A DNA stretch of 64,000 nucleotides from an uncultured Actinomycetes bacterium (GCA_963760755.1 CAVXEE010000004.1:627235-691234), one strand, 5' to 3'. Shown: positions 5,504 to 58,990, numbered from the stretch's first letter. Program-made: numbers and translations. The notes: a model not told the origin generated them from the sequence alone.

Positions 5504-5516
5504 GTCCGGTTCTCCT

Positions 5517-6318: not shown

Positions 6319-6322
6319 GGTC

Positions 6323-6350: not shown

Positions 6351-6406
6351 ATCATGCCTGGCAAGGCTTGACCATCGCGCGGTCGGTGATGCATGATCGC
6401 CGTGAA

Positions 6407-7051: not shown

Positions 7052-7086
7052 CGGCGGCGCGGTCGCACGGGCGGGACGGGGCGCGC

Positions 7087-7208
7087 CTGCCACTTGGCAG
7101 ACACGGCGGATGCCAATTGGGCGGTACGGCCCGGTGTTTACGGCGTGATCACGACCCGAACCGTGTCCGCTGCGCCAATTGGCATCCATCACAGATGCCA
7201 GTTGGCGG
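7087..7208. repeat. Compound inverted repeat built from four GCCANTTGG palindromes
   Basis: ctgccacttggcag (7087), ggatgccaattgg (7108), ccaattggcatcc (7175), tgccagttggcg (7196), between convergent genes. Confidence 0.65.
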
Positions 7209-7225
7209 ACAAGCCCACCTCCGCT

Positions 7226-7630
7226 CTAGCCCTTGCCGCCCGGCCCGCGATGGTGCTCGCGGCGCACGACGTAGGTGCCGCGCGCGCGGGTCGCGAGCAC
7301 GGGCGGGTCGAGCACGTCGGCGGCCGAGCCGCTGACGTCGGGCCGGGCCGAGATCTCCTTCCAGATCTCGAGATCGACTGTGCGGCTGGTGTTGCCCATC
7401 CGCACGATCGTGCCGGTGACGCGCACGAAGTCGCCGCCGTAGAGCGGCGCCAGGAACTCGACCTTCTCATACCCCGCGAACAGACCCTCGTCGCCGTCGG
7501 TGCGCACCGCCAGCTCGGTGACGATGTCGCCGAACAGCTCGAGGCCGTGGGCGCCGTCGACCAGATTGCCGCCGTAGTGCACGTCAGCCGCCGACAGCCG
7601 CACCCGCAGCTCGACGCTCATCCCCTCCAT
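7226..7630 (-). CDS. Hotdog-fold beta-aminoacyl-CoA ammonia-lyase (3-aminobutyryl-CoA / beta-alanyl-CoA ammonia-lyase family)
   Basis: LRVRLSAADVHYGGNLVDGA...LFGD...TEL...DGDEGLFAGY..VEFLAP..GGDF, typical of Kal/Acl; AAGGAGGAG RBS. Confidence 0.8.
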   Translation of the reverse strand: MEGMSVELRVRLSAADVHYGGNLVDGAHGLELFGDIVTELAVRTDGDEGLFAGYEKVEFLAPLYGGDFVRVTGTIVRMGNTSRTVDLEIWKEISARPDVSGSAADVLDPPVLATRARGTYVVRREHHRGPGGKG

Positions 7631-7655
7631 GCGCTCCTCCTTCCGACCGCCGCGA

Positions 7656-8584
7656 TCATACGGCGCGCACGCGGTGCACGGGGAATGCGTCCTGCATGCG
7701 GCCGTCACGGCGCCGCGCCGGCCGGGCGGCGACCAGGCAGTTGTAGACCGCCTCCTCCGCCGCCTCGTAGGCCGCGGCGAAGAGCGGCGAGAGCGCCTCG
7801 TTCGTGTACCCCTCGGCCTCGGCGACGGTGAACGCGATCCCGATCTCGCCCGAGCCGTTCGAGGCGTACGACCCCGCCCGGGCCAGGCCCAGCAGCGGCC
7901 GCAGCGCCAGCCGCCGCAGCTGCTGCGCGCCAAGTGGCGCGTCGGTGGCGCAGACGGCGATGCAGGAGCCCTCGGGTGAGACCGGCAGCGGCGCCGGGTC
8001 GAAGCGCAGGCCGCCCGACGTGAACCGCTCGCGATCGCCGAAGTTGCACATGAGCAGCACCCCCACGGTATGGCCGGAGACCAGCCGCGATGCGGTGCCG
8101 ATGCCGCCGGGGAAGTCGAAGCAGGTCATGCCGGTGCCCGCGCCGACGGTGCCCTCGGCCACGTCCTCGCCGGCGTTCGCCAGGGCAGCGTCCGCATCGG
8201 CGACCGTCACCGTGCGCGCGTCGGCCATGTCGGAGTCGTCGCACTCGCCGACGACGGGGATCACCGTGTGGTCGGGGTCGCCGCCCGCCGCGAGCACCGC
8301 CGCGTGGTAGACCATCCCGACAGCGTGCGTGCCGCACAGCCAGACCGGCGACTGGATGATCCCCCACTCGTCGATCTCGATCTTCTTCGTCAGCTCGCCG
8401 ACGCCGTTCACCGTGTCCACGCCGGCTCGCACCGGCACGCGCGGCGGCACGACCACGCTCACCCCGGTGGCCTCGCCGCTGCCGGCCTGGGCGTGGCCGA
8501 CGCGCACCCCCGGCACGTCGGTGATCGCGTTGCGGGCGCCCGTCGGGAAGAGCCCGACCGGCCCGGCGATGTCGCGCCAGCGCG

Positions 8585-8588
<4 letters not shown>
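7656..8588 (-). CDS. P1/S58 family peptidase (DmpA/BapA-like aminopeptidase)
   Basis: GARNAITDVPGVRVGH, IPVVGECDDS, EGTVGAGTGM, GGIGTASR, EGSCIAVCATDAPL, NGSGE. Confidence 0.88.
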
Positions 8589-9606
<1,018 letters not shown>

Positions 9607-36300: not shown

Positions 36301-36486
36301 CGTGATCGACGTCGTCTCGCTCGGCGCGGGCGCCGACACGGCCTCGCCGCCGCTTCGCAGCGTGCAGAGCGCAGGCCTGGTCGCCGCCGGCCTGGCCGCC
36401 TTTGCGATCGCCGGGCTCACGCTGGTCTGGGCGTTCGCGCGCACAGCCTTCCGCGCGCCGGTGCCGGGCCGGATCGGAGGCGGCGG

Positions 36487-36490
<4 letters not shown>
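33371..36490 (+). CDS. Large FtsX/MacB-type ABC permease
   Basis: ~1000 aa with multiple TM blocks, LERHGA and LEALGV FtsX-like motifs; coupled to the ATPase gene; start uncertain. Confidence 0.75.
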
Positions 36491-38040
<1,550 letters not shown>

Positions 38041-40408: not shown

Positions 40409-41353
40409 TTACCGTGCCTCCGCGAAGACCTCGGCCCAGTCGTCCTTCATGCTGACGACTGTCCAGCCGTGCGCCGCCGCCTCGTCCAGCGACCGCTCGG
40501 CTCCGGCCGTGTAGGCGAACTCACGCTCGGCGTCGTCGTGCAGCAGGAGCAGGCGCAGGGCCGGCCGGGAGCCGCCGCCCGCGTAGCGCAGCATCTGGAT
40601 GTCGCCGTTCGAGTTGCCGCCCGCGACGATCGGGCGGCGGCCGATCCGGCTCCAGATCCGCACCGGCTTCACCGGGCCGTCGTCGAACACGTCCATGGCG
40701 GCCTCGTACACGACCGCGCCGCCGTCGGCATCGTCGCGGTAGCGCAGCGCCGTTGCGCTGCCCACGACGCGCTCGGCCGGGATGCCGTACATCCGGCCGG
40801 TGACCGGGCGCATGAAGTCGCGGTCGCCGCCGGAGGCGATGTAGCTCACGAAGCCGGTCGCCTCGAGATGGCGCAGGAGCTCGAGCATCGGCAGGTAGCC
40901 GCAGTCCAGGAACGAGCGGCCCAGGGTCGGGTGCTCGCCCTCGTGCAGGAACGCATGCGCCGCGACCGCGTAGTCCTCGACCGCGAGCCCGGCAAACGCC
41001 TCCGTGACGCCGCGAAGCAGCACGTTCGCGTCCGCGTCGTCTCCGGCGTAGTGCTTGGTGAGGGCCGCGCCGAGCCATGCGTAGTCGTGCTCGTAGGCCG
41101 CCTGCCACGGCTGGCGGTCGCGCAGCGAGGCGTCGGCCGCCGCCATCTCGGCGAGCCGGCGCAGGATGAACCCGACCTCGATCGGCATCGGCTTCTCGCA
41201 CCAGAGCGTGCCGTCGTTGTCGAAGACCGCGACCCGCTCGTCCGGAGCGACGTAGTCCGGCCCGCCCTCCTCCGTCACACGTGCGACGAAGTCCAGGATC
41301 GCCGTCCGCGCCCGCCCTTCCCGCCAGCTCGCAAGCACCTCGTCCCCCGCCAC
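40409..41353 (-). CDS. HAD family hydrolase (nonspecific acid phosphatase-like)
   Basis: AVFDNDGTLWCEKP, IASGG, GNSNGDIQML, HDDAEREFAY, VSMKDDW. Confidence 0.88.
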   Translation of the reverse strand: MAGDEVLASWREGRARTAILDFVARVTEEGGPDYVAPDERVAVFDNDGTLWCEKPMPIEVGFILRRLAEMAAADASLRDRQPWQAAYEHDYAWLGAALTKHYAGDDADANVLLRGVTEAFAGLAVEDYAVAAHAFLHEGEHPTLGRSFLDCGYLPMLELLRHLEATGFVSYIASGGDRDFMRPVTGRMYGIPAERVVGSATALRYRDDADGGAVVYEAAMDVFDDGPVKPVRIWSRIGRRPIVAGGNSNGDIQMLRYAGGGSRPALRLLLLHDDAEREFAYTAGAERSLDEAAAHGWTVVSMKDDWAEVFAEAR

Positions 41354-41542
41354 GTCATCCCCTCTTCCCCCCGGCGTTACCGATTACGGCTCGGAACACG
41401 GAAAGCCGCGTAGGCCAACTACCCCAATCCGGCTCCCAGAGCCAGGAATCTAACACTCTCCTTACGCAATCCGCGCCGGAAGCTGCCGATGTGTGGCCTC
41501 GTTTGAGTCGTCGGAACGGCAGATCCGTAGGGAGGGTCACCA

Positions 41543-42865
41543 ATGGCGGAAGAGTCCACAGTCACACGCGCGTCGACCGGGTTCGACGAGGCGATCGCGA
41601 CGCGCACCGCGAAGATCGGCATCATCGGCCTGGGCTACGCGGGGCTGCCGCTGGCCGTCGGGTTCGCCGACTCCGGGTTCAACGTGCTCGGCATCGACCT
41701 CGACCCCGACCGGGTCGCGTCGGTCAACGCGGCCAGGTCGTACCTGACCGACATGGCCGACGGCGACCTCGCCCGCCTGGACGGCCGGGTGTCGGCCGCG
41801 ACGACCTACGATCGCGCCGACGAGGCCTCCGCCTTCATCATCTGCGTGCCGACGCCGCTCTCGAAGACGCGCACGCCCGACCTGTCCTACGTCGTCGCCG
41901 CGGTCGAGGCCGTCGCCGCGCGGCTCGTGCCCGGCCAGCTCGTCGTGCTCCAGTCGACGACCGTCCCCGGCACGACCGACGAGCTGCTCGTCTCGGCGCT
42001 CGAGCGCGCCACCGGTGGCACGGTCGGCGAGGACTTCTTCGTCGGATACGCCCCAGAGCGCGTCGACCCCGCCAACAAGGCCGGCTGGACGCTGCGCACG
42101 ACGCCGAAGCTCGTCTCCGGCGTAACCGAGGAGTGCGCGCGCCGCACCGCCCTCCTGTTCGAGCAGGTCTGCGACACCGTCATTCCGTGCGGATCGCCCC
42201 GCGTCGCCGAGCTCGCGAAGCTGTACGAGAACACCTTCCGCCAGGTGAACATCGCCCTCGCGAACGAGCTCGCCCTCATGTGCCAGCGCCTCGGCGTGTC
42301 GGCCTGGGAGGTCATCGACGCCGCGGCCACCAAGCCGTTCGGGTTCCTGCCCCACTACCCCGGCCCCGGCCTGGGCGGCGACTGCATCCCGGTCGTCCCC
42401 CACTTCCTCTCCTACCGGCTGCGCGAGTGCGGCTACCAGACACGCATGATCGACGCCGCCCACGAGATCAATACCACGATGCCCGAGTTCGTCTGCGAGC
42501 TCGTCACGCGGGCGCTGAACGACCGCGGCAAGGCGGTGCGCGGGGCGCGGATCCTGCTCTGCGGCGTCGCCTACAAGCCGAACGTCTCGGATCTGCGCGA
42601 GTCGCCGGCCCTGGTGATCTTCGAGGAGCTGCAGCGCCGCGGCGCCCAGATCGCGTTCGCCGATCCGCACGTCGCGAGCGTCACGGTCGGCAGCTACGTC
42701 TATCCGGCCGCCCCGTGGAACGCGGCGATCGTCGCCAGCGCCGACGTGGTCGTGATGCTGACGCCGCACGACGAGTTCCTGGCGGCACCGCACTGGGACG
42801 TCGCCCAGACGGTCGTCGACACCCGCAACGTCGTCGCGCCGGGCGAGGGCGTGTACCAGCTGTGA
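41543..42865 (+). CDS. Nucleotide-sugar dehydrogenase, UDP-N-acetylhexosamine (WbpA/WecC) type
   Basis: GLGYAGLP, ICVPTP, STTVPGTT, PERVDPAN, KLYENTFRQVNIA, GPGLGGDCIP, YKPNVSDLRESP; GGAGG RBS. Confidence 0.9.
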   Translation: MAEESTVTRASTGFDEAIATRTAKIGIIGLGYAGLPLAVGFADSGFNVLGIDLDPDRVASVNAARSYLTDMADGDLARLDGRVSAATTYDRADEASAFIICVPTPLSKTRTPDLSYVVAAVEAVAARLVPGQLVVLQSTTVPGTTDELLVSALERATGGTVGEDFFVGYAPERVDPANKAGWTLRTTPKLVSGVTEECARRTALLFEQVCDTVIPCGSPRVAELAKLYENTFRQVNIALANELALMCQRLGVSAWEVIDAAATKPFGFLPHYPGPGLGGDCIPVVPHFLSYRLRECGYQTRMIDAAHEINTTMPEFVCELVTRALNDRGKAVRGARILLCGVAYKPNVSDLRESPALVIFEELQRRGAQIAFADPHVASVTVGSYVYPAAPWNAAIVASADVVVMLTPHDEFLAAPHWDVAQTVVDTRNVVAPGEGVYQL

Positions 42866-44649
42866 GCCTGCGCCCCGGCAAAGAGAAGCCGGCATCGGCC
42901 GTCGGCCGCCTGTTCCAAGCCGGCTGCCTCGCCTACGGGCTCGCCATCGCCTACGACAGCGCCCGCAAGCGCCGCCTCGCCGCCCTCGAGGCGGCGGGAC
43001 GCACAGACCTGGCGGCGTTCGCGCCGCTCGCGGCCGCCGAGCCGAAGCCGGCCGTCGTTGTGCCGCGCGAGCCGCCGGCCGAGGCCGCGCAGCCCGCGGC
43101 GAGCGCCGTCGCGGTGGCCGTCGCCGCCGAGCCCGACGCCCACCCGGAGCCCGAGCCGGAGCCCGAGCCCGCGGCGTGGCCGCAGCCGTACCTGGCGCTC
43201 GTGCCGGAGCCGGCCGCCGAGCCTGCCCCCGACATCGTCTCGGCGGTCGAGCCGGCCGCCGTGTTCGAGCCGATCGACGAGAGCCGGGCCGGCCTTCCCG
43301 ACGGCCTGCGCGACTCGCTCTGGGCGCGACTGGCCATCGGCGCGATCCAGCTCGTCTGCGTTGCCTACAGCATCGTCCTGCTCTACATCGTGTGGATGGC
43401 GAAGGACATCACCGTCGCCTCGATCACCCGTGACCCGGTGTTCGGCGGCTATTCGCTCCTCGTCACCCTCTACGTGCTCGCCCGCTTCTCGATCGCCCCG
43501 TTCTACCGGTCGACGCCCGATACCGGCTACCGGCCCTCGTGCTCGATCGTGATCCCCGCGTTCAACGAGGAGGGCTGCATCGAGGCCACAATCGACGCCT
43601 GCTTCTCGGCCGACTACCCCCGGGATCAGATCGAGGTCGTCGTCGTCGACGACGGGTCGAGCGACAGCACGTGGGAGCGCATGCTCGCCAGCCGCGAGCG
43701 CTACCCGTCGCTGCTCTGCGTCCAGTTCTCGCAGAACCGCGGCAAGCGCGCGGCGATGGCCGAGGGCATCCGCCGGTCGAGCGGCGAGGTGTGCGTGTTC
43801 ATCGACTCGGACTCGGTGATCGAGTCCGACGGGCTCGCCATGATCATGGCCGACTTCCGCGACGAGCGGGTCGGCGCCGTCGTCGGCACAGCCGACGTCA
43901 TGAACAAGGCGCAGAACCTGATGACCAAGATGCAGCAGGTGCGCTACTTCTGCGCGTTTCGGGTCGTCAAGGGCTCGGAGTCGGTGTTCGGCGCCGTCAC
44001 CTGCGCGTCGGGGTGCTTCTCGGCCTACCGCCGCTCGGCCCTGCTCGAGATCCTGCCCCGCTGGGAGACCCAGCGCTTCCTGGGCCGCCCGGCCACCTAC
44101 GGCGACGATCGCGCGCTCACGAACTACATCCTGCGCAACCACCGCGTCACCTACCAGTCGCAGGCCCGCAGCCACACGCTCGCGCCGGACACGCTGAAGG
44201 CGTTCCTGATCCAGCAGATCCGGTGGCGCAAGAGCTGGCTGCGCGAGTCGCTCCACGTCGTGCGGTTCATGTGGCGCAAGCACCCCGTCGCCGCCGCGCT
44301 CACCTACCTCGGCGTGCTCTTCCCGTGGGTGGCGCCCATCGTCGCGTTCCGGTCGCTCTACTGGCACAGCATCATGACCGGCAGCCCGTGGTTCTACCTC
44401 ATGGGCGCCTACGTGATGGCACTGCTCTACTCGCTCTACTACGCCGTCTCGCGCAAGAGCCCGCTGTGGCACCACGGCATCACGTTCATCGTGATCTACA
44501 TGGCCTTCCTGGTCTGGCTCACCTACTACGCCCTGCTCACGCTGCGCAACACGAGCTGGGGCACGCGCGCCTCGACCCACACGCTCGGCGAGGTGTCGGT
44601 GACGGTGGTCGGCCCCGGTCATCCCGCCACGATCTCCGAGGCGGCCTGA
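42862..44649 (+). CDS. GT2 processive glycosyltransferase, class I hyaluronan-synthase-like
   Basis: DDGS, NRGKR, DSDS, CASG..SAYRR, GDDRALT, QQIRWRKSW, C-terminal WGTR; 2 N-terminal and several C-terminal TM helices. Confidence 0.85.
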   Translation: MSLRPGKEKPASAVGRLFQAGCLAYGLAIAYDSARKRRLAALEAAGRTDLAAFAPLAAAEPKPAVVVPREPPAEAAQPAASAVAVAVAAEPDAHPEPEPEPEPAAWPQPYLALVPEPAAEPAPDIVSAVEPAAVFEPIDESRAGLPDGLRDSLWARLAIGAIQLVCVAYSIVLLYIVWMAKDITVASITRDPVFGGYSLLVTLYVLARFSIAPFYRSTPDTGYRPSCSIVIPAFNEEGCIEATIDACFSADYPRDQIEVVVVDDGSSDSTWERMLASRERYPSLLCVQFSQNRGKRAAMAEGIRRSSGEVCVFIDSDSVIESDGLAMIMADFRDERVGAVVGTADVMNKAQNLMTKMQQVRYFCAFRVVKGSESVFGAVTCASGCFSAYRRSALLEILPRWETQRFLGRPATYGDDRALTNYILRNHRVTYQSQARSHTLAPDTLKAFLIQQIRWRKSWLRESLHVVRFMWRKHPVAAALTYLGVLFPWVAPIVAFRSLYWHSIMTGSPWFYLMGAYVMALLYSLYYAVSRKSPLWHHGITFIVIYMAFLVWLTYYALLTLRNTSWGTRASTHTLGEVSVTVVGPGHPATISEAA

Positions 44650-44651
44650 CC

Positions 44652-46382
44652 ATGCGCCACTCACGCCTCTCCCCCCGCCGCCGGTGGTTGCTCCAGAGCA
44701 TCGTCGGCCTGGTGACCCTGCCGCTCTCGGCCGTGCCGATCTGGATCTACGCCACCCACACGTCGGTCGGTCAGCTCCTGTCGATGCGGGCGCGCTACCA
44801 GTTCTTCGCCCCCTCCACGCCGTCCCTCTCCCCCGCCGCCACGGCCGCAGCCGTGGCCGACCGGCACCGCACGGTCGCGGGCGTCCCGGTGCTGCTCTAC
44901 AGCATCGGCCACCCGACCGAGTCGTTCGACGGCCGCTACGTGGTCAGCCGGGAGCACTTCGCCGAGCAGATGTGGGCGCTGCGCGACGCGGGCTACACGC
45001 CGATCAAGGTCGAGCAGCTCGCCCAGTACCTGCGCACCGGCAGCCGCACCGGCCTGCCCGCAAAGCCCGTGCTGATCACCTTCGACGACTCGAAGACCGA
45101 GGCGATGCTCCAGGCCGATCCGATCCTGTCAGCGACCGGCATGCGCGCGGTGATGTTCGTCAGCGGCGGCCACGCCTCGTCGGGGAGCCTCTTCGCCGAG
45201 CAGTGGGACAGCCTCGCCGGCTACGGGTCGAGCGGCCGCTGGGAGCTCGAGAACCGCACGAACGACCTCAGCGCTCCGACCCGCGACGGGTCGCGCCTCT
45301 CGACTCGGCTCATCGAGTCGCCGCCGAGCGAGACGACGGCCGCCTACGCCCACCGCGTCGCCTCCGACCTGGAGTCCGCGGAAGGCCAGCTCCAGAGCCA
45401 CGGCGCCGGCCATGCGATCGCATTCGCCTACCCGTACGGCAACTGGGGCCAGCACGCCCGGCCGGGGATCGCCGCGGCCCTGCGTCAGGTCGTCGGCCAC
45501 CGCTTCCGGCTCGCGTTCGACCAGGATCAGCAGTCGGGCTGGCGCCCGGTGCTCCCGGGCGACGACCGCCTCCACATCCACCGGCTCGAGGTGATGGACT
45601 GGACCGGCACCGAGCTTCTGCGCCGCCTCGACGCGGGCGCGCAGCTCGGTCAGACCGTGTTCGCCGAGCGCGGCCTCGACCACTCCTACAGCGCCCTGCA
45701 GCTGCTGCGGGCGGCCAAGGCCTACCGTTGCACCGGCGTTCCCGGCACCGTGCTCGCCGCCCCGGCGCGTGCGCCTCACGCCGTGGCGCTCTCGTTCGAC
45801 GACGGCCCCTCGGCCTACACGCCCCAGGTGCTCGACCTGCTCGAGCACGCCCACGCCCACGCCACGTTCTTCGTCTCGGCCGGCCCGCTGCACGGCCGGG
45901 GCCGGATCCTCACCCGGATGCTGGCCGACGGCGACGAGATCGGAAACGGCGGCGTGACGGCGCCGGCGCTCGCCGGCCGGCCGGCGGGGCAGACACGCGC
46001 GGCGCTGCTCGCGACCGTGCGCGCCATCCAGACCGCCGTCCCGCTCTCGCCCTGCATCGCCCGCCCGCCGCGCAGCTCCGACGCCGCGGCGCTCGCACGG
46101 ATCGCCGGCCCCCTGGGCGAGCGGGTCGCGACGTGGTCGGTCGACCCGCGCGACTTCGCCACCACCGACCCCGCGCTGATCGCCCGCCGCGTGCTGCGTG
46201 CGGTGCGGCCCGGCTCGGTCATCGCCCTGCACGACGGCGGATCCAACCGCTGGGCCACCGTGCAGGCCATCCCACGCATCCTCGCCGGACTCGCCCGGCG
46301 CGGCTACCAGGTGACCACGGTCACCGAACTCGCCCGCGACCTGGGTCACGCGCCCTCCTCGGCGCGACGCCCCGGCAACTGA
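44652..46382 (+). CDS. Tandem CE4 polysaccharide deacetylase-like protein (IcaB/PgaB-like plus NodB-like domain)
   Basis: LITFDDS...FAYPYG; ALSFDDGP...ATFFV...WSVDPRDF...IALHDGG; N-terminal TM anchor. Confidence 0.82.
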   Translation: MRHSRLSPRRRWLLQSIVGLVTLPLSAVPIWIYATHTSVGQLLSMRARYQFFAPSTPSLSPAATAAAVADRHRTVAGVPVLLYSIGHPTESFDGRYVVSREHFAEQMWALRDAGYTPIKVEQLAQYLRTGSRTGLPAKPVLITFDDSKTEAMLQADPILSATGMRAVMFVSGGHASSGSLFAEQWDSLAGYGSSGRWELENRTNDLSAPTRDGSRLSTRLIESPPSETTAAYAHRVASDLESAEGQLQSHGAGHAIAFAYPYGNWGQHARPGIAAALRQVVGHRFRLAFDQDQQSGWRPVLPGDDRLHIHRLEVMDWTGTELLRRLDAGAQLGQTVFAERGLDHSYSALQLLRAAKAYRCTGVPGTVLAAPARAPHAVALSFDDGPSAYTPQVLDLLEHAHAHATFFVSAGPLHGRGRILTRMLADGDEIGNGGVTAPALAGRPAGQTRAALLATVRAIQTAVPLSPCIARPPRSSDAAALARIAGPLGERVATWSVDPRDFATTDPALIARRVLRAVRPGSVIALHDGGSNRWATVQAIPRILAGLARRGYQVTTVTELARDLGHAPSSARRPGN

Positions 46383-46399
46383 AGGAGACACGAGACGAC

Positions 46400-48256
46400 A
46401 TGTGCGGAATCATCGGGTACATCGGGCACCGGCAGGCAATGGACGTCCTCCTCGAGGGGCTCTCGCGGCTGGAGTACCGCGGCTACGACTCGGCCGGGCT
46501 CGCGCTGCACACGGGCGACGAGGTCATGACGCGGCGCGCGGTGGGCAACCTGGCGACGCTGCGGCAGTCGATCTCGGACGCCTGGTCGGGAAACGCGGTC
46601 GCCACCACGACCGTCGCGGCCACGGCCGGCATCGCCCACACCCGCTGGGCCACGCACGGCGGCGTCACCGAGGAGAACGCGCATCCGCACGCCGACTGCG
46701 AGGGCCGCATCCATGTCGTCCTGAACGGCATCGTCGAGAACCACCGCTCCCTGCGGGAGGGGCTCGAGCTCGAGGGCTGCACGTTCACGTCCGAGACCGA
46801 CGCCGAGCCGATCGCCCACCTGATCGAGCGCCATCTCGAGACCGCCGGCAATCTGTACGAGGCCGTCCGCCGCGCCTCGCTCGAGCTCGAGGGCCACTAC
46901 GCCATCGTCGTCCTCGACCGCGAGGATCCGCAGACGCTCGTCGCGGTGCGCAAGGAGTGCCCGCTCGTCATCGGGCTCGGGCAGGGCGAGACCTTCATCG
47001 CCTCGGCCGCCGCCGCGTTCCGTGCCTTCACCGACCGCACGATCGTCGTCGCCGACGGGCAGATGGCCGTCATCACCTCGCACGGAGTCGCCCTGACCGA
47101 CGCCGCGACGGCGACCGAGATGCCGGCGCACGTCCAGCGCATCGGCTGGCTCGTCGACGACGTCGACAAGGGCCGCTACGACACGTTCATGCGGAAGGAG
47201 ATCGACGACCAGCCGGCCGCCTTCGGCACCACCGTCGCCCGCCACACCGGCGAGAGCGGCGGGTTCACGCTGGGAGACGCCGAGCCGCTGCTCGCCGCGG
47301 CCCGCCGCATCGTGATCGTCGCCTGCGGGACGTCCTACCACGCGGGCCTGCTCGGCCGCCACCTGCTGCACGGCTGGGCGCGCGTGCCCGCGCTCGTCGA
47401 GATCGCGTCCGAGTGGCGCTACTCCGACCCGGTGCTCGAGCGCGGCGACGTCGTCCTCGCGATCAGCCAGTCCGGCGAGACGCGCGACACCCTGGCCGCA
47501 CTGCGCCTGGCCGGCGAGATGGGCGTCCCGACGGTGGCGCTCACGAACGTCGAGGGCTCGCAGATCTGCGACCACGCCGACGCGGTGCTCCTGACCCACG
47601 CCGGACCCGAGATCGGCGTCGCCGCCACCAAGACGTTCACGACCCAGACCGCCCTGCTGTCGGTGCTCGCGGCGCGACTCGCGGCCAACCGCGGGATGCT
47701 CGATCCGCGCGCCCGTCGCCATCTGGCAAACCAGCTGCGGGCGATTCCCGAACTGATGACCGAGACCGTGGTACGCTCCGAGCCAGTCGCCGCCCGTCTT
47801 GGACGGCGTTGGGCGCGGGCCGGGTTCTTCTTCTACATCGCCCGCAACCTGGGTCTGCCGGTGGCCCTCGAGGGGGCCCTGAAGATGAAGGAAATCAGCT
47901 ACGTGCCGTCGGATGCCTACGCGGCCGGAGAGATGAAGCACGGGCCCATCGCGCTGCTCTCGCCGGACACGCCGACGATCGCCGTCGCAACGGGCACGCC
48001 CGTGGTCGACAAGCTCGCCTCGAACGTCGCCGAGGTGAAGACGCGCGGCTCGCACGTGCTCGCGATCGCCCCCGAGGACGATCCGCGCATGCTCGAGTAC
48101 GCCGACGAGACGGTCTTCGTCCCGGCCGTCGACTGGCGGCTGCAGCCGATCCTCTCGGTGGTGCCGCTGCAGCTGCTCGCGCTCGAGACCGCCGAGGCGC
48201 GCGGTCTGAACGTCGACCAGCCCCGCAACCTGGCCAAGACGGTGACCGTCGAGTGA
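46400..48256 (+). CDS. glmS: Glutamine--fructose-6-phosphate aminotransferase
   Basis: MCGIIGY, LEYRGYDSAG, HTRWATHG, SQSGET, GVAATKTF, KHGPIAL, PRNLAKTVTVE. Confidence 0.96.
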   Translation: MCGIIGYIGHRQAMDVLLEGLSRLEYRGYDSAGLALHTGDEVMTRRAVGNLATLRQSISDAWSGNAVATTTVAATAGIAHTRWATHGGVTEENAHPHADCEGRIHVVLNGIVENHRSLREGLELEGCTFTSETDAEPIAHLIERHLETAGNLYEAVRRASLELEGHYAIVVLDREDPQTLVAVRKECPLVIGLGQGETFIASAAAAFRAFTDRTIVVADGQMAVITSHGVALTDAATATEMPAHVQRIGWLVDDVDKGRYDTFMRKEIDDQPAAFGTTVARHTGESGGFTLGDAEPLLAAARRIVIVACGTSYHAGLLGRHLLHGWARVPALVEIASEWRYSDPVLERGDVVLAISQSGETRDTLAALRLAGEMGVPTVALTNVEGSQICDHADAVLLTHAGPEIGVAATKTFTTQTALLSVLAARLAANRGMLDPRARRHLANQLRAIPELMTETVVRSEPVAARLGRRWARAGFFFYIARNLGLPVALEGALKMKEISYVPSDAYAAGEMKHGPIALLSPDTPTIAVATGTPVVDKLASNVAEVKTRGSHVLAIAPEDDPRMLEYADETVFVPAVDWRLQPILSVVPLQLLALETAEARGLNVDQPRNLAKTVTVE

Positions 48257-49827
48257 GAGCCGGCGTGCGCCTGGCGACCGTGGCTGCCGGCGCAGCCGTG
48301 CTGCTCGTCGCCGGGTACTCGGGGGTGGCGCATGCGTCGGCGTGCAGCTCCCGCAGGGTCACGCACCTGCGCTGGAGCCGCGCGCGCGGCGCCCCCGCGG
48401 GGCTGCTGCGCTGGCGCGCTCCGGCGCACCTGCCAGCCGAGGCGGGCTACCGCGTCTGGCGCTCGGGCGCGCTGATCGGCGTGGCCCGCAGACGGCGCGC
48501 CCCTGTCCACGTCACCCCGCGGCACACCTACACCTTCTCGGTGCGCGTCGAGAACCTCGTCACGGGCCACATCTCGGCCTGCAGCGCCTCGCTGACGCGG
48601 ACGATCAACTACTACCGGCCGGGCATGGCCGGCCACCTGGTGGCGGCCAAGCCCAACGAGACGTCCGTGTTCCTGGCCTGGCGGCCGGCCCGCCGCGGCG
48701 ACGGCCGCATGGCCGGCTACCGCGTGTACCGAAACGGCGAGGTCGTGCAGCAGACGCGGCACACGCACTTCACCGCCCGCCACCTCTTCGCCGGCACGGC
48801 CTACCGGTTCTACGTGCGCGCGGTCGACACGAACGGCATCCAGGGCCGCCCCTCGCGCACCGTCCACCTGACGACGCCCACACCGCCGCTGACGACGGGG
48901 AATGCGACGGCGTTCATCCTCGAGTCCGACGGCGCCAGCTTCGCCGACCTGCAGCGCCACTACATGCGCATCGGCACGATCTTCCCGACGTACTTCAACT
49001 GCACGCCGACGGGCGGGATCATGGGGGTCAACGACCCGCTCGTCACGGGGTGGTCGCAGGAGCGCGGCATCAGCGTCGAGCCGCGGTTCAACTGCCAGAA
49101 CCAGGCCGCGCTGGTCGCGATCCTGACCAACTCGACGATCCAGCAGCACGTGATCGCCGGCCTCGTGCAGCTCGCGGTGACGAACAGCTACCAGGGCATC
49201 AACATCGACTTCGAGTCGAACAACGCGGCCCAGTACCGGAATCAGCTCACCAGCTTCATCACGAAGCTCACGACCGCCCTCCACGCCCAGGGCAAGAAGC
49301 TCTCGGTCGAGGTCTCGGCCGCCTACTACAACCAGCTCACGGGCCGGGCCGGGTTCTACGACTACCACGCGCTCGCGGCGGTTGCCGACCAGGTCGTCGT
49401 GATGGACTGGGGCAAGTCGTGGGCGACGAGCGCCCCGGGCGGCCTCGACCCGATGCCGTGGTTCTCGAGCGTGCTCGCCTATGTGCACACGATGCCCGTG
49501 GCGTCGAAGTTCACGATCGTGATGACGCTCTACGGCATCGACTGGCCCGGCGCCGGCGGCGCCGCCCACCCGGGCACGCCGCTCGAGTGGATCAACGTGC
49601 GCGCGTTGATCAACACGTACCACGCCACGCCGGTGATCGACCCGGTCGCCGACGATCCGCACTTCTCCTACGTCGACTCGGCCGGCGTCACGCACAGCGT
49701 GTGGTACTCGAACCAGCACACGATCGCCGACCGCGTCGCGCTCGCGCGCAGCTACGGCTTCGGCGCGGCGTACTGGCGGCTCGGCCGTGAGGATCCCGAC
49801 ATCTGGGGCATCCCCGACGTCGGTTGA
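48253..49827 (+). CDS. Secreted Fn3-Fn3-GH18 glycoside hydrolase
   Basis: Signal peptide, two Fn3-like repeats (GYRV...YTFSVRV / YRFYVRAVD), GINIDFE, YDYHAL, YWRLGRED. Confidence 0.82.
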   Translation: MRAGVRLATVAAGAAVLLVAGYSGVAHASACSSRRVTHLRWSRARGAPAGLLRWRAPAHLPAEAGYRVWRSGALIGVARRRRAPVHVTPRHTYTFSVRVENLVTGHISACSASLTRTINYYRPGMAGHLVAAKPNETSVFLAWRPARRGDGRMAGYRVYRNGEVVQQTRHTHFTARHLFAGTAYRFYVRAVDTNGIQGRPSRTVHLTTPTPPLTTGNATAFILESDGASFADLQRHYMRIGTIFPTYFNCTPTGGIMGVNDPLVTGWSQERGISVEPRFNCQNQAALVAILTNSTIQQHVIAGLVQLAVTNSYQGINIDFESNNAAQYRNQLTSFITKLTTALHAQGKKLSVEVSAAYYNQLTGRAGFYDYHALAAVADQVVVMDWGKSWATSAPGGLDPMPWFSSVLAYVHTMPVASKFTIVMTLYGIDWPGAGGAAHPGTPLEWINVRALINTYHATPVIDPVADDPHFSYVDSAGVTHSVWYSNQHTIADRVALARSYGFGAAYWRLGREDPDIWGIPDVG

Positions 49828-49863
49828 GAGCGGCTGAACGCCGCCCGGGGTACCGTGCGGCCG

Positions 49864-50424
49864 ATGGCCCGGATCCTGCTCGTATCGGGCAGCACGCGCG
49901 GCGGCTCGACGAACACCGCCCTGTTGCGCACCGCGGTCGCCGTTGCGCCGGCGGGGATCGAGGCCGTGCTCTACGACGGGATGACGGCGCTCCCGCACTT
50001 CAACCCGGATGACGACGCCGACCCCCTGCCCGCGGCCGTCGCCGGCCTGCGCGCCCAGGTCGGCGCTGCGGATGCCGTGCTCATCTGCACGCCGGAGTAC
50101 GCCGGGGCGCTCCCGGGGACGTTCAAGAACCTGCTCGACTGGTCGGTGGGCGGCCCCGAGATGTACGGCAAGCCGGTGGCGTGGGTGAACGCCTCCGGCT
50201 CCCCCACCCGCGCCCGTCACGCGCACGAGTCGCTCGCCACGGTGCTCGGCTACATCCACGCCGACGTCGTTGCGGACGCCTGCGTCCACATCCCGGTCGC
50301 GCGCACCACGATCGGCGCCGACGGGCTCGTCGCCGACGACGGCGTGCGCCGCCGGATCGCCACCGTGATCGAGTCGCTGGCGCGGTACGCAGCCACCCGG
50401 CCGGAGTGGGATCCGGCGGCGTAG
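49864..50424 (+). CDS. NADPH-dependent FMN reductase
   Basis: VSGSTRGGSTN, LPHFNPD, TPEYAGALPGTFKNLLDW. Confidence 0.9.
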   Translation: MARILLVSGSTRGGSTNTALLRTAVAVAPAGIEAVLYDGMTALPHFNPDDDADPLPAAVAGLRAQVGAADAVLICTPEYAGALPGTFKNLLDWSVGGPEMYGKPVAWVNASGSPTRARHAHESLATVLGYIHADVVADACVHIPVARTTIGADGLVADDGVRRRIATVIESLARYAATRPEWDPAA

Positions 50425-50437
50425 AGCCGCCAGGCGG

Positions 50438-52162
50438 CTACGGCGCCGGCAGCACCGGCGTCCCCTGCCTGCGCACTGCGGCCAGCAGGTCGGGATCCAG
50501 CCCGAGCAGGCGCAGAATTGTCGGTGCGATCTCGGTCGTCTCGACGGGCGTCGACACGCTCCCCGCCGCGATGCCCGGTCCCGCGACGATCAGGGCGACA
50601 TGCCGGTCCTGCGGGTCGTCGCCGCCGTGCTCGGCGATCTTGCCGGTGCCGCCGGTGTACACCGTCCCATGCTGGACGATGCCGACCAGATCGGGCACCC
50701 GCGCGTCGCTCCTGGCCACGCCGAAGAACGCCGGGCCGAGCTTCACCGCGCGCAGCCCCGACGCCGTGAACCCGATCGGGTCGCCCGCGTAGTTCGTCGC
50801 CGCCCCTGCCGATGCCGGCTGCGAGTAGTGGAGCAGGAAGTGGCGGGCGAACGCGAGCCCGTCCTGGCTGCGGTCCGCACGCCAGATGTACATCGCGTCG
50901 TCATCGATCGCGAAGGCAACCAGGTCGCCGCTGCCGCCGTGGGCCTGCCACGCGGCGTTGAGCGCGTCGATCACGTTGCCGTCGTCGATGCGCTTGAGCG
51001 CGGTCGTCTCGATGGGCGACTGGCCGTGCTTGGCCGAGAGGATGATCGCCGTCTCCCCCAGGAGGTGACGATCGCCGAGCTCGTCCACCATGCGGCCGAC
51101 CGAGCGGTCGACGAAGGCGAGCGAATCGCGCAGCACCGGCCCCGGCACCCAGTGCCCGTCCTCGCGGACGTACCCGCCGAGCTGGTCCGTGCCGCCGATC
51201 GGCGACGTCGGCAGCTTCTCGCCGGTCGAGACCGACTGGAAGTTCATGCCGAAGAGCGCCGGAACGCCGACGTGCGCCGTGCGGCCATGGTTCCAGCCGT
51301 CGATCTCGTTGATGACCGCCTGCACCTTGATCGCGTCGTAGAACTGCGTGTCGCGGTTGTTCGTCGTCCAGTCGCCGCTCGGACCGGCGGGCAGACTGGG
51401 GTCCGTCGTCGAGCTGTTGATCTCGGGCGTGAACAGATCGTCGATGCCGGTGCCCGCGTGGCCGGAGAGCAGCTCATACGCCGGATGCTTGTCCGACCAG
51501 GCGGTGCGCAGGCCGTGGTCGTGCGCGACCTGGAACACCGTGTTCACGCGCAGGTACTGGCGCGGGTAGACGGGCGCGCACGTCCTCGGGTCGATGGGCA
51601 GCTGGGCCGGGTCGATCATGCCTGCCTCGATCGCGGGCACGTTGCCCGGCAGCGCAAGGACGCTGCCCGGAAGGCCCGAGTACAGGTTGGGGATCCCGAG
51701 GCCGGCGTCGATCGAGTTCAGGTCGCGGTCGATGTTCTCGGCGAAGTTCACCTCGGTGCCAAGACCCGTGGTCTGCCCCGGCGTGCATGCACTCCCGGGC
51801 GGCAGCAGGCGGCGGTTGTAGCTGTCGTCGTAGTAGATGCCGGTTGTGCGAGGGTCGCCGCCCGTGACCTGGGCGACCATGCCCGGGAAGGAGTCCGACG
51901 GCACCGGCGTGACGGCGTTTCGGTACTCAGCACCGGCGCCGGCGAGCCGGGCCAGCGCGCCGCCCGGATGATGCTGCACCCACCAGCGCAGGTCGGACTG
52001 GTGCAGCCCATCGACCGAGATGAGCAGCACATGATCGACCTTGACGTGGCGGGCGGCGGGCGCGTGCCCCGCGCCCGCGGCGGCGCTCGCCGACACGGCG
52101 GCTGCGGCGCCCACCGAAAGCGCGGCCGCCGCCGCGCGCCCAACTCGACCCAGACTGAACAT
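50438..52162 (-). CDS. Secreted alkaline phosphatase superfamily / nucleotide pyrophosphatase-phosphodiesterase
   Basis: Signal peptide; VLLISVDGLH, PSDSFPG, SAKHGQSP, AEHGG...DRHV. Confidence 0.85.
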   Translation of the reverse strand: MFSLGRVGRAAAAALSVGAAAAVSASAAAGAGHAPAARHVKVDHVLLISVDGLHQSDLRWWVQHHPGGALARLAGAGAEYRNAVTPVPSDSFPGMVAQVTGGDPRTTGIYYDDSYNRRLLPPGSACTPGQTTGLGTEVNFAENIDRDLNSIDAGLGIPNLYSGLPGSVLALPGNVPAIEAGMIDPAQLPIDPRTCAPVYPRQYLRVNTVFQVAHDHGLRTAWSDKHPAYELLSGHAGTGIDDLFTPEINSSTTDPSLPAGPSGDWTTNNRDTQFYDAIKVQAVINEIDGWNHGRTAHVGVPALFGMNFQSVSTGEKLPTSPIGGTDQLGGYVREDGHWVPGPVLRDSLAFVDRSVGRMVDELGDRHLLGETAIILSAKHGQSPIETTALKRIDDGNVIDALNAAWQAHGGSGDLVAFAIDDDAMYIWRADRSQDGLAFARHFLLHYSQPASAGAATNYAGDPIGFTASGLRAVKLGPAFFGVARSDARVPDLVGIVQHGTVYTGGTGKIAEHGGDDPQDRHVALIVAGPGIAAGSVSTPVETTEIAPTILRLLGLDPDLLAAVRRQGTPVLPAP

Positions 52163-58838: not shown

Positions 58839-58990
58839 GGGGGGTCCTTTCAGAGCGTGTTGCGGGGGGTTGCCCTCATCGTGTCCGCCCGGCCCGTCAC
58901 GGCTCCAGACCGGGGCCGCTGCAATTCCGCGCCGGAACTGTCACGCGCCGTGTGACATCGCACGACGCCGAGGCGCTACCCTGATCGGCC

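What the first reader, a model, noticed from the sequence alone, without database searches (positions are those of the whole stretch)
41543..49827. Self-contained operon for a hyaluronan-like but probably non-hyaluronan glycosaminoglycan
Seen: five tightly coupled genes (overlaps or gaps of 2-17 bp): nucleotide-sugar dehydrogenase, GT2, tandem CE4 protein, glmS and Fn3-GH18. The GT2 has class I hyaluronan synthase signatures (GKR, DSD, C.SG..SAYR, GDDR.LT, QQ.RW.KS, terminal WGTR) rather than the EDR / QRRRW of chitin synthases. Known: streptococcal hasAB pairs HAS with UDP-Glc dehydrogenase, and chloroviruses carry HAS, UDP-Glc dehydrogenase and GFAT. Here the dehydrogenase is the UDP-HexNAc type and the other precursor gene is GlmS, so both feed N-acetylhexosamine. 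Inference: a synthase-dependent polymer of GlcNAc and HexNAc-uronic acid, with a surface CE4-like scaffold and a GH18 for chain release. I do not know of this system being described in this kind of organism.
Basis: partly seen in the sequence, partly recalled or inferred. Interest (0 to 1): 0.8.

Follow-up and report, generated by a model that had tools for sequence, protein, structure and literature searches.

The report
Hyaluronan-synthase-like amino-sugar polymer operon
A soil actinobacterium carries a compact five-gene operon built around a hyaluronan-synthase-like membrane enzyme that most likely makes and exports an unstudied, probably acidic, N-acetylglucosamine-based surface polymer that is probably not ordinary hyaluronan.

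Summary
Five same-strand genes (41543-49827) with 4-bp overlaps or 2-17-bp gaps encode a UDP-HexNAc-type sugar dehydrogenase, a GT2 synthase, a two-domain CE4 protein, a second GlmS and an Fn3-GH18.

The GT2 has the class I hyaluronan synthase fold (TM 0.72-0.75). It shares GDDRxLTN, WGTR and a channel-entrance Arg with HAS but not with NodC. It forms its own clade and is not nested in HAS, NodC or PgaC.

All five genes recur in order in 7 related MAG loci; 2 more are cut by contig ends. The wider conserved core is GT2 plus a CE4-like gene (47 of 53 loci, several phyla). The dehydrogenase is adjacent in 13 of 53 loci and is always WecC/TviB-type, never HasB-type.

In this lineage both CE4 domains have lost the His-His metal ligands, so the protein is probably a non-catalytic binder. 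The GH18 keeps its D-x-E catalytic pair.

Best reading (about 0.5): a synthase-dependent polymer of GlcNAc and an N-acetyl-hexosaminuronic acid. Plain chitin-like polymer is about 0.25 and authentic hyaluronan about 0.08.

I found no published characterisation. Earlier notes of this scan describe the same core module in CPR bacteria and archaea. I rate it a new variant of a known kind.

The parts
41543..42865 (+). NDP-sugar 6-dehydrogenase of the UDP-N-acetylhexosamine (WecC/TviB/Cap5O) type, 440 aa
   Evidence: TIGR03026 392.9 bits. Best equivalog models are WecC (250 and 247 bits) and TviB (212 bits), all below their cut-offs; Ugd scores 39 bits. PDB best hits are a UDP-ManNAcA dehydrogenase (4r16, 1.2e-61) and Cap5O (4e-58). 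The tree puts it in the WecC/TviB superclade, apart from the HasB/Ugd type.
42862..44649 (+). HAS/NodC-superfamily processive GT2 synthase, 595 aa. About 150 aa of Ala/Pro/Glu-rich low-complexity N-terminus, then 2 TM helices, the GT-A domain and C-terminal TM/interface helices
   Evidence: NodC model 193 bits, cut-off 550; PgaC model 135 bits, cut-off 422. (XlHAS1 3.9e-36, CvHAS 8e-31). AF2 model pLDDT 85, Foldseek TM 0.72-0.75 to HAS. Motifs.
44652..46382 (+). Membrane-anchored two-domain CE4-like protein, 576 aa. N-domain (about 75-330) is PgaB/IcaB-like; C-domain (about 370-565) is NodB-like. Both lack the His-His metal ligands
   Evidence: PF01522 with 2 stretches. NCBIfam PgaB/IcaB hits in the N-domain and PdaB/NodB hits in the C-domain. 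PDB and motif alignments. Model and Foldseek hits to PdaC/Bc1960 and to PgaB-N/IcaB/PplD.
46400..48256 (+). Second, operon-dedicated GlmS (glutamine--fructose-6-phosphate transaminase), 618 aa, with N-terminal MCGI
   Evidence: TIGR01135 711 bits. The genome has another glmS on contig 12 scoring 770 bits. All 5 relatives tested also have two copies.
48253..49827 (+). Secreted Fn3-GH18 hydrolase of the SleL/YaaH/YdhD-like subfamily, 524 aa, with a signal-peptide-like N-terminus and catalytic D-x-E (GINIDFE)
   Evidence: PF00704 and fn3. PDB 5jh8 2.3e-28, SleL 4s3j 2.4e-22, YdhD, YaaH. D-x-E is conserved in 14 of 14 rows that cover the motif.

Best explanation
This is a synthase-dependent exopolysaccharide system.

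Step 1. The extra GlmS raises the flow of fructose-6-P into the UDP-GlcNAc pool. Shown: it is a second copy, conserved in relatives. Inferred: the flux role.

Step 2. The dehydrogenase oxidises part of that pool at C6. The product is UDP-GlcNAcA, or UDP-ManNAcA if the unlinked WecB epimerase acts first. Inferred from family placement.

Step 3. The GT2 sits in the membrane like a class I hyaluronan synthase. It polymerises UDP-GlcNAc together with the HexNAc-uronic acid and pushes the chain out through its own channel. Shown: fold, intact catalytic motifs and a HAS-like Arg at the channel entrance. Inferred: the donor pair and the linkages.

Step 4. Outside the membrane, the anchored two-domain CE4-like protein holds or guides the chain rather than deacetylating it. 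It has lost the metal-binding histidines in both domains in this lineage. It may dock on the synthase.

Step 5. The secreted Fn3-GH18, with its catalytic pair intact, cuts after GlcNAc residues to trim, release or remodel the polymer.

The product is therefore predicted to be an acidic, glycosaminoglycan-like polymer that is not hyaluronan. The system is an accessory trait, not part of the essential wall.
For: Operon structure and conservation:
- Gene junctions are tight.
- All five genes are present in order in 7 loci; L005 and L008 are cut by contig ends.

GT2:
- Best solved relatives are XlHAS1 (3.9e-36) and CvHAS (8e-31).
- The AF2 model (pLDDT 85, pTM 0.85) matches HAS structures at TM 0.72-0.75. 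BcsA scores 0.55 and chitin synthases about 0.5.
- GDDRxLTN and WGTR are shared with Bacillus HasA and chlorovirus HAS; NodC has GEDRHLT and WLSR.
- The XlHAS1 R287 position contacts GlcA-2 in the channel (PMC11750622, passages read). It is Arg in the family, in HasA and in viral HAS, but Glu in 3 of 3 NodC sequences.

Dehydrogenase:
- It is translationally coupled to the GT2.
- It lies next to the GT2 in 13 of 53 loci across Gaiellales-like Actinomycetota, Solirubrobacterales, Saccharibacteria, an IMG/VR contig and a cultured Paenibacillus.
- All of these dehydrogenases fall in the WecC/TviB superclade (SH-aLRT 99). The genome's other dehydrogenase groups with the HasB type.
- 5 of 5 cluster-linked dehydrogenases score higher on HexNAc-DH models than on UDP-Glc-DH models. 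The Paenibacillus one scores 428 bits on TviB.

Other parts:
- GlmS is a dedicated paralogue.
- CE4 His-His loss; CE4 folds confirmed.
- GH18 D-x-E conserved in 14 of 14 rows.
- Docking of the CE4 N-part on the synthase has weak support only: ipSAE 0.52 against a best of 3 controls of 0.00. In the calibration the mark was reached by 58 of 80 solved complexes and 2 of 110 mismatches, but scores of 0.60 or under by only 7 of those 80 and by both mismatches. Runs agree in at least 77% of contacts and the partner pLDDT is at least 82. My own alignments were used.
- Distribution is patchy: 26 of 151 genomes of the order, and 9 of 23 other genomes of the genus.
Against: - No chemistry exists; the composition is inferred from gene content.
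- GT2 orthologues at 61-73% identity (L010-L014) have no adjacent dehydrogenase. Elsewhere in those five genomes the best match to this dehydrogenase is 58%, 47-48% (two genomes) or only 28-32% (two genomes).
- 0 of the 33 loci L017 and L019-L050 (mostly PVC-group) have an adjacent dehydrogenase. So the synthase family as such does not require it, and the family-wide product may be a plain GlcNAc polymer.
- The residues that read the GlcA carboxylate in CvHAS (Lys of GKR, Arg of QxxRW; PMC12987647, passages read) are also present in NodC and do not discriminate.
- The dehydrogenase reaches no equivalog cut-off, so its substrate is open.
- The trees are 'quick' trees with long reference branches. 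AU tests leave the GT2 placement unresolved.
- GH18 enzymes are best known on chitin and peptidoglycan, which fits a chitin-like product just as well.
Confidence: 0.5

Rival explanations
1. The product is a plain chitin-like (beta-1,4-GlcNAc) polymer or chito-oligosaccharide, partly deacetylated in lineages with active CE4 domains. The dehydrogenase serves another glycan or an optional decoration.
For: - GT2 + CE4-like is the conserved core: 47 of 53 loci, against 13 of 53 with an adjacent dehydrogenase.
- Sister lineages L010-L013, L018 and L079 keep the TFDD and HTxxxH motifs in the PgaB-like domain.
- GH18 is the classic chitin-cleaving family, and its D-x-E pair is kept.
- The best NCBIfam model for the GT2 is NodC (193 bits).
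- GlmS feeds only GlcNAc.
- HAS enzymes can make chitin oligomers (recalled; a 1996 commentary on whether DG42 makes hyaluronan or chitin appears in the reference list of PMC7053769).
Against: - The dehydrogenase start overlaps the operon's first junction by 4 bp, and HexNAc-type dehydrogenases have been recruited next to this GT2 family in at least four separate branches of the dehydrogenase tree.
- The window's clade has lost deacetylase metal ligands in both CE4 domains.
- The GT2 shares the channel-entrance Arg, GDDR and WGTR with HAS, not with the chitin-oligomer synthase NodC.
- Similarity to eukaryote-type chitin synthases is marginal (E 4.5e-4).
Confidence: 0.25
2. The product is authentic hyaluronan (GlcA-GlcNAc), as JGI's automatic label 'hyaluronan synthase' implies. 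UDP-GlcA would come from this dehydrogenase or from the genome's second, Ugd-type dehydrogenase.
For: - HAS-like fold and motifs.
- The genome has a second NDP-sugar dehydrogenase (427 bits) that groups with the HasB-like type.
- Grouping the family with HAS is not rejected (p-AU 0.129).
- Many homologues carry the source label 'hyaluronan synthase', which is an automatic name.
Against: - The operon dehydrogenase is only 26% identical to the pXO1 HasB-like enzyme and sits in the HexNAc clade.
- No cluster-linked dehydrogenase in any lineage is Ugd-type.
- In the free tree the GT2 is outside the clade holding HasA and viral HAS.
- CE4 and GH18 partners are not found in the has loci fetched here (searches show hasA-galU-ugd and dehydrogenase-GT only).
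- GH18 is not a known hyaluronidase family (recalled).
Confidence: 0.08
3. The product is PNAG (beta-1,6-GlcNAc), as in pgaABCD/icaADBC, with the CE4 N-domain acting as the PgaB/IcaB counterpart.
For: The universally co-located CE4 domain is PgaB/IcaB-like by sequence and fold. PVC versions add TPR repeats, as periplasmic scaffolds of synthase-dependent systems do.
Against: - The GT2 is far from PgaC: the model scores 135 bits against a cut-off of 422; tblastn gives 28% identity over 40% of the query; PgaC is the long outgroup branch in the tree; and it lacks GKR, GDDR and WGTR.
- No PgaD or IcaD gene is present.
- GH18 enzymes are not known to cleave beta-1,6 links (recalled).
Confidence: 0.03

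Closest known systems
Class I hyaluronan synthase loci (Bacillus pXO1 hasA-galU-ugd fetched here; streptococcal hasABC, recalled; chlorovirus HAS with GFAT and UGDH)
   Same: A single membrane GT2 that polymerises and exports. It has the same fold (TM 0.72-0.75) and shares the GDDRxLTN, QQxRWxKS and WGTR motifs and the channel-entrance Arg. It is paired with a nucleotide-sugar dehydrogenase. Pairing with a GlmS/GFAT gene is also seen next to chlorovirus-type HAS in L081, L085 and L087; those viral proteins score 751 bits to CvHAS.
   Different: The GT2 forms a separate clade. The dehydrogenase is HexNAc-type, not HasB/Ugd-type. CE4-like and GH18 partners are added. The GT2 has a 150-aa low-complexity N-terminus. 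The product is unknown.
NodABC chitooligosaccharide system of rhizobia
   Same: A GT2 of the same superfamily next to a CE4 (NodB-like) gene. NodC is the best NCBIfam model (193 bits). GKR, DSD and QQxRW are shared.
   Different: The score is far below the NodC cut-off of 550. There is no nodA. NodC has GEDRHLT, WLSR and Glu at the channel-entrance position. The C-terminal NodB-like domain here lacks the His-His site that NodB keeps.
Fungal and algal-virus CHS8 (chitin/hyaluronan-synthase-like) - UNGD - polysaccharide deacetylase cluster
   Same: The same three functions are clustered: a HAS/CHS-like GT2, a predicted UDP-GlcNAc 6-dehydrogenase and a CE4 deacetylase. The product was also unknown in these papers (PMC5122149, PMC4059230, PMC7053769; passages read).
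   Different: Those are eukaryotic or viral genes with a QRKRW-type chitin synthase motif (PMC7053769). No homology between the two sets was tested here. They have no GlmS or GH18 in the cluster.
PNAG systems pgaABCD / icaADBC
   Same: Synthase-dependent export of a GlcNAc polymer, with a PgaB/IcaB-like CE4 domain encoded beside the synthase.
   Different: The synthase is only distantly related. There is no PgaD/IcaD. The CE4 metal site is lost here.
CE4 pseudoenzymes (Bacillus BA3943, PDB 7bkf/6hm9) and, by analogy, the non-catalytic BcsB partner of cellulose synthase
   Same: A CE4 fold without a complete catalytic or metal site. BA3943 is among the top structural matches of the C-domain. 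The protein is a membrane-anchored extracytoplasmic partner encoded directly after the synthase.
   Different: A BcsB-like role is an analogy only. Docking on the synthase has weak support only (0.52 against a best control of 0.00).

Membership tests
Class I hyaluronan synthase | GT-A domain with DxD, GDD(R), QxxRW and the WGTR gating-loop motif | tested here: met
   IDSDS, GDDRALTN, QQIRWRKS and SWGTR are present in the protein and aligned with HasA and viral HAS.
Class I hyaluronan synthase | Membrane architecture and fold of XlHAS1/CvHAS | tested here: met
   AF2 model pLDDT 85. Foldseek TMq 0.75 (8smp) and 0.72-0.74 (CvHAS), rmsd about 3.1-3.6 A over 411-423 columns. No NodC structure appeared among the PDB sequence or fold matches for comparison.
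Class I hyaluronan synthase | Phylogenetic placement inside the HAS clade | tested here: inconclusive
   In the free tree the family of 50 rows is its own clade (SH-aLRT 90), beside a clade of NodC + HasA + viral HAS (94). Holding family + HAS together is not rejected (p-AU 0.129); family + NodC is borderline (p 0.057). No vertebrate or streptococcal HAS sequences were available.
Class I hyaluronan synthase | Partner UDP-glucose 6-dehydrogenase (HasB type) supplying UDP-GlcA | tested here: not met
   The operon dehydrogenase is in the WecC/TviB superclade, 26% identical to the pXO1 HasB-like enzyme.
Class I hyaluronan synthase | Product is hyaluronan | not testable with these tools
   Needs chemistry.
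NodC chitooligosaccharide synthase (TIGR04242) | Score above the curated equivalog cut-off | tested here: not met
   193 bits against a cut-off of 550.
NodC chitooligosaccharide synthase (TIGR04242) | nodA/nodB neighbours and NodC-type motifs | tested here: not met
   There is no NodA-like gene in the operon. The motifs GEDRHLT, WLSR and 'MEY' of NodC are replaced here by GDDRALT, WGTR and 'VRY'.
PgaC/IcaA PNAG synthase (TIGR03937) | Score above the curated cut-off | tested here: not met
   134.7 bits against a cut-off of 422.3. PgaC is the distant outgroup in the tree.
Eukaryote-type chitin synthase | Full-length Chitin_synth match; EDR and QRRRW motifs | tested here: not met
   PF03142 matches only residues 302-393. 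Solved chitin synthases score E 4.5e-4 and TM about 0.5. The motifs are GDDR and QQIRW.
CE4 metal-dependent de-N-acetylase (active enzyme) | Asp-His-His metal triad (TFDD plus H-S/T-x-x-H) with catalytic Asp and His | tested here: not met
   The N-domain has TFDD but reads ENRTNDLS where L010-L013 have NHTxDLH. The C-domain has FDDGP and LHDG but reads GNGGVTAP where NodB has NHTMTHP. The fold itself is CE4.
GH18 hydrolase | Pfam score above the cut-off and the catalytic D-x-E of the DxxDxDxE motif | tested here: met
   PF00704 49 bits against 29.6. GINIDFE aligns with GINVDFE of 5jh8. D-x-E is present in 14 of 14 family rows. The upstream Asp residues of the full motif are Q and N here.
GlmS (TIGR01135) | Equivalog cut-off and N-terminal catalytic Cys | tested here: met
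   711 bits against 418. The protein begins MCGI.
UDP-GlcNAc 6-dehydrogenase (TviB/WbpA) or UDP-ManNAc dehydrogenase (WecC/Cap5O) | Equivalog-level score or characterised orthologue | tested here: inconclusive
   WecC models score 250 and 247 bits (cut-offs 750 and 459) and TviB scores 212 (cut-off 592). Only superclade membership is supported. wecB was not found in this 79%-complete MAG, but it is over the cut-off in 4 of 5 relatives.

The most novel reading that the evidence does not exclude
A third, prokaryote-wide lineage of hyaluronan-synthase-like enzymes makes a so far undescribed microbial glycosaminoglycan of alternating GlcNAc and N-acetyl-hexosaminuronic acid. A catalytically dead CE4 protein serves as an obligate extracellular co-subunit of the synthase, in the way BcsB serves cellulose synthase. 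Lineages would tune polymer charge by switching between deacetylation (active CE4, cationic) and uronic-acid incorporation (dehydrogenase present, anionic).
Probability: 0.3. Interest if true: 0.8.

Novelty: new variant of a known kind. Interest (0 to 1): 0.62.

Why it matters
Gaiellales-type Actinomycetota are common in soil metagenomes and almost none are cultured, so what they put on their surface is unknown.

This operon belongs to a large GT2 family. One search found 1611 database proteins at E <= 0.001 among the 8000 candidates scored. Automatic pipelines label these proteins 'hyaluronan synthase', yet I found no member with a determined product.

If the product is an acidic HexNAc/HexNAc-uronic acid polymer, it would be a new microbial glycosaminoglycan and a new specificity for HAS-type synthases. 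That would interest people studying soil aggregation and desiccation biology, and people engineering polysaccharides.

The same DH-GT2-CE4-GH18 arrangement lies on a megaplasmid of the cultured Paenibacillus cellulositrophicus KACC 16577. That makes the question directly testable at the bench.

Tried and rejected
- Natural GT2-CE4 fusion as Rosetta-stone evidence. The long homologues P0106 and P0107 (952 and 984 aa) have N-terminal extensions and no CE4 similarity. The long L012 frame is a spurious high-GC extension after a frame break, not a fusion.
- In-frame stops in PVC GT2 hits (errors). These were tblastn alignments running past the true stop, not recoding.
- Promoter and terminator scan of 41200-50700. 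It found 0 promoter-like sites and 1 terminator-like site on the wrong strand, no more than in shuffles, so it is uninformative.
- Viral relatives. The single-protein scan of IMG/VR found none. The alignment scan found one 59%-GC contig, L079, with DH-GT2-CE4. A motif pattern scan found 8 chlorovirus-type loci, used only as HAS references.
- Context of the closest annotated plasmid dehydrogenases (R. etli p42e, B. mycoides) gave no hint of substrate.
- Expression. No RNA holder was listed for the operon. Only soil and rhizosphere DNA runs hold 0.14-0.21 of its sampled words.
- Literature. Searches found no paper describing this bacterial family or cluster. Only open-access PMC and bioRxiv were searched, and supplements were closed, so the supplementary tables of PMC5122149 and PMC4059230 could list relatives I did not see.
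- Look-up in earlier scan findings by sequence found no look-alike window.
- L067 translated on the wrong strand gave no family hits. Its type rests.


Full report
**Observation.** The window has about 72% G+C, so long ORFs are unreliable. Third-position GC frame analysis and start-codon candidates define five + strand genes:
- a dehydrogenase, 41543-42865;
- a GT2, 42862-44649 (GTG start, overlapping the previous stop by 4 bp);
- a two-domain CE4 protein, 44652-46382 (2-bp gap);
- GlmS, 46400-48256 (17-bp gap, preceded by GAAGGAG);
- an Fn3-GH18 protein, 48253-49827 (4-bp overlap if the first GTG is used).

Pfam and NCBIfam confirm each assignment. Upstream lie LysE and HAD genes on the opposite strand, and downstream a phosphodiesterase on the opposite strand. 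An FMN reductase gene follows after 27 bp (49855-50424). It recurs downstream in only 2 of the 9 closely related loci (L003, L007), so I do not count it as part of the system.

**The synthase.** By sequence the nearest solved proteins are Xenopus HAS1 (3.9e-36) and Chlorella virus HAS (8e-31). Solved chitin synthases reach only 4.5e-4. An AlphaFold2 model of residues 149-595, built from 26 family sequences, has pLDDT 85 and pTM 0.85. It matches HAS structures at TM 0.72-0.75 and rmsd about 3.1-3.6 A. BcsA scores 0.55 and chitin synthases about 0.5.

NodC has no solved structure among these matches, so I fetched NodC from three rhizobial plasmids. I also fetched the hasA frame of Bacillus pXO1, a Lactococcus plasmid dehydrogenase-GT pair, E. 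coli PgaC, and seven chlorovirus-type HAS genes that score 751 bits to CvHAS.

In a 64-row maximum-likelihood tree (quick search, PgaC as outgroup), the window's protein and 49 relatives form one clade (SH-aLRT 90). Beside it is a clade holding NodC, HasA and viral HAS (94). Rows left out were the partial or weak hits L014, L048, L050-L058, L068 and L083. AU tests do not reject joining the family with HAS (p 0.129). They only borderline reject joining it with NodC (p 0.057). So the family is a separate branch of the HAS/NodC superfamily whose exact position is open.

Motifs sort as follows:
- GKR, DSD and QQxRW are common to NodC and HAS, so they do not discriminate.
- GDDRxLTN and WGTR are shared with HasA and viral HAS, whereas NodC has GEDRHLT and WLSR.
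- The position of XlHAS1 R287, which lies at the channel entrance next to GlcA-2 (PMC11750622, passages read), is Arg in the family and in HAS but Glu in all three NodC sequences.
- The residues that read the GlcA carboxylate in CvHAS (Lys177, Arg341; PMC12987647, passages read) are conserved everywhere, including NodC.

**Conservation of the neighbourhood.** A scan of one genome per species found 58 loci. With the Paenibacillus plasmid locus and one IMG/VR contig that makes 60, of which 53 have a GT2 match of at least 250 residues.

All five genes are present in order in 7 loci (L001-L004, L006, L007, L009). L005 and L008 are cut by contig ends. A CE4-like gene lies directly downstream of the GT2 in 47 of 53 loci: 46 by tblastn, plus L075 by annotation and Pfam. 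Of the six loci without one, L046 and L049 have under 700 bases downstream, and L016, L019, L038 and L054 have none within 4 kb.

The dehydrogenase is adjacent in 13 of 53 loci, GlmS in 9 and GH18 in 13. None of the 33 loci L017 and L019-L050 (mostly Lentisphaerota, Kiritimatiellota and Verrucomicrobiota) has an adjacent dehydrogenase. Their partner is a 1,450-1,650-residue protein joining the CE4-like domain to TPR repeats.

The cultured Paenibacillus cellulositrophicus KACC 16577 carries CE4, dehydrogenase, GT2 (40% identical), a long CE4 and GH18 on a megaplasmid. The dehydrogenase there is missing from the PLSDB gene table but is an open frame.

Within the organism's own order the GT2 was found in 26 of 151 sampled genomes, and in 9 of 23 other genomes of the genus, with several near-complete genomes lacking it (the tally includes one genome flagged unpublished). 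It is therefore an accessory trait.

**The dehydrogenase.** It scores best on UDP-ManNAc and UDP-GlcNAc dehydrogenase models, all below their equivalog cut-offs, and poorly on Ugd. Its nearest solved relatives are a UDP-ManNAcA dehydrogenase and Cap5O.

In a 29-row tree, all dehydrogenases found next to this GT2 family lie in the superclade that holds WecC and TviB (SH-aLRT 99). These are the window's clade with L016, the pair L015 + L079, L018, and the Paenibacillus enzyme. The genome's second dehydrogenase and the pXO1 HasB-like enzyme lie outside that superclade. The Paenibacillus enzyme groups with TviB (100) and scores 428 bits on the TviB model.

The cluster-linked enzymes are not monophyletic, which suggests repeated recruitment of HexNAc-type dehydrogenases.

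Against an obligate role: five genomes have a close GT2 orthologue but no adjacent dehydrogenase. Elsewhere in those genomes the best match is 58% in one, 47-48% in two and only 28-32% in two.

The WecB epimerase was not found in this 79%-complete MAG. It is over the cut-off in 4 of 5 relatives that carry the full operon. So both UDP-GlcNAc and UDP-ManNAc remain possible substrates.

**GlmS.** The genome has a higher-scoring glmS on another contig (770 against 711 bits). All five relatives tested also have two copies. The operon copy is a dedicated paralogue.

**The CE4 protein.** It has an N-terminal membrane helix and two CE4-fold domains (model pLDDT 71). Foldseek matches the C-domain to PdaC, Bc1960, chitin deacetylases and the CE4 pseudoenzyme BA3943. 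It matches the N-domain to PgaB-N, IcaB, PplD and BpsB.

Only the N-domain is the universal neighbour of the GT2. In the window's clade this domain keeps TFDD but reads ENRTNDLS where L010-L013 have NHTxDLH. The PVC versions have lost these residues too. The C-domain keeps FDDGP and LHDG but reads GNGGVTAP where NodB has NHTMTHP. With both His-His metal sites gone, the protein is unlikely to be a canonical deacetylase here.

A complex prediction of the GT2 core with residues 1-345 of this protein gave weak support only. The score was 0.52 against a best of three controls of 0.00. In the calibration the mark was reached by 58 of 80 solved complexes and 2 of 110 mismatches, but scores of 0.60 or under by only 7 of those 80 and by both mismatches. 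The runs agree in at least 77% of contacts and the partner pLDDT is at least 82. My own alignments were used.

**The GH18.** It has a signal-peptide-like start, Fn3 repeats and a GH18 domain closest to a probable chitinase (5jh8) and to the spore-cortex enzymes SleL, YdhD and YaaH. The catalytic D-x-E is present in all 14 cluster-linked sequences that cover it. From memory, SleL cleaves after GlcNAc in a heteropolymer. That would fit a GlcNAc-X repeat, but this is recalled, not tested.

**Mechanism and rivals.** The most economical reading of these parts is a HAS-type, synthase-dependent system. It would be fed by extra UDP-GlcNAc and by a UDP-HexNAc-uronic acid. A non-catalytic CE4-like binder and a trimming GH18 would act outside the cell. 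Shown: the gene order and its conservation, the HAS-like fold and motifs, the dehydrogenase type, the duplicated GlmS, the lost CE4 metal sites and the intact GH18 pair. Inferred: the donor sugars, the linkages, and the roles of the CE4 and GH18 proteins.

I put this reading at about 0.5. The main rival is a plain chitin-like polymer at about 0.25, because the family-wide core lacks the dehydrogenase. Authentic hyaluronan is at about 0.08 and PNAG at about 0.03. The remainder is an unforeseen composition.

**Comparison with what is known, and novelty.** The system works like a has operon. It fails two membership tests for class I HAS loci (clade placement is inconclusive, and the partner dehydrogenase is of the wrong type), and it fails the curated cut-offs for NodC and PgaC.

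A striking parallel is the fungal and algal-virus cluster of a chitin/hyaluronan-synthase-like gene, a predicted UDP-GlcNAc 6-dehydrogenase and a polysaccharide deacetylase. Its product was also unknown in the papers I read (PMC4059230, PMC5122149, PMC7053769; passages only).

Six literature searches found no description of the bacterial family. Supplements were closed and subscription journals are not in the library. JGI's pipeline already names many homologues 'hyaluronan synthase', which is an automatic label.

Earlier notes of this scan (AI notes, unchecked) report the same DH-GT2-CE4 core in CPR bacteria and archaea and also call it unstudied. My Saccharibacteria locus L018 falls inside the family, and to that extent it agrees with them.

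I rate the finding a new variant of a known kind.

Noticed in passing
window 49855-50424 (+): An NADPH-dependent FMN reductase gene (PF03358) lies 27 bp after the GH18 on the same strand. It recurs downstream of the cluster in only 2 of 9 related loci (L003, L007), so it is probably not part of the system.
   Followed up: partly
window 42862-43310 (+): The first 150 or so residues of the GT2 are an Ala/Pro/Glu-rich low-complexity stretch (including EPEPEPEP) before the first membrane helix. Homologues vary from about 440 to about 620 aa, and some (P0106-P0109) carry about 500-residue N-terminal extensions of unknown function.
   Followed up: partly
window 33371-38040 (+): A very G+C-rich region (77-79%) holds a protein of about 1040 aa with a C-terminal FtsX-like permease domain, followed by a protein with two ABC ATPase domains. 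It is a MacB-like exporter pair unrelated to the operon.
   Followed up: no
window 56541-58940 (-): A 799-aa protein with repeated bacterial Ig-like (Big_13) domains, probably a surface protein.
   Followed up: no
L079 (IMG/VR contig, 59% G+C), about 4600-8800: A contig filed as viral carries dehydrogenase-GT2-CE4 of this bacterial family (GT2 41-44% identical). It groups with a Saccharibacteria locus in the GT2 tree. It may be a misfiled cellular contig or a phage-borne copy.
   Followed up: partly
L081, L085, L087 (IMG/VR, 43-45% G+C): Chlorovirus-type HAS genes (751 bits to CvHAS for L084, whose row is identical to L087's in the tree alignment) have a GlmS/GFAT homologue within a few kb.
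   Followed up: partly
Genomes G110 and G155; L012 and L009: Signs of decay or assembly breaks in some copies. The G110 GT2 has an in-frame TGA. The G155 GT2 is split over two frames. The L012 GT2 loses its frame after residue 509. The L009 dehydrogenase match covers only 284 residues.
   Followed up: no
L043, L038 (PVC loci), GT2 'GKR' position: Some Kiritimatiellota and Verrucomicrobiota members read NRGLCHG instead of NRGKR. They thus lack the Lys that in CvHAS contacts the nucleotide and the GlcA carboxylate.
   Followed up: no
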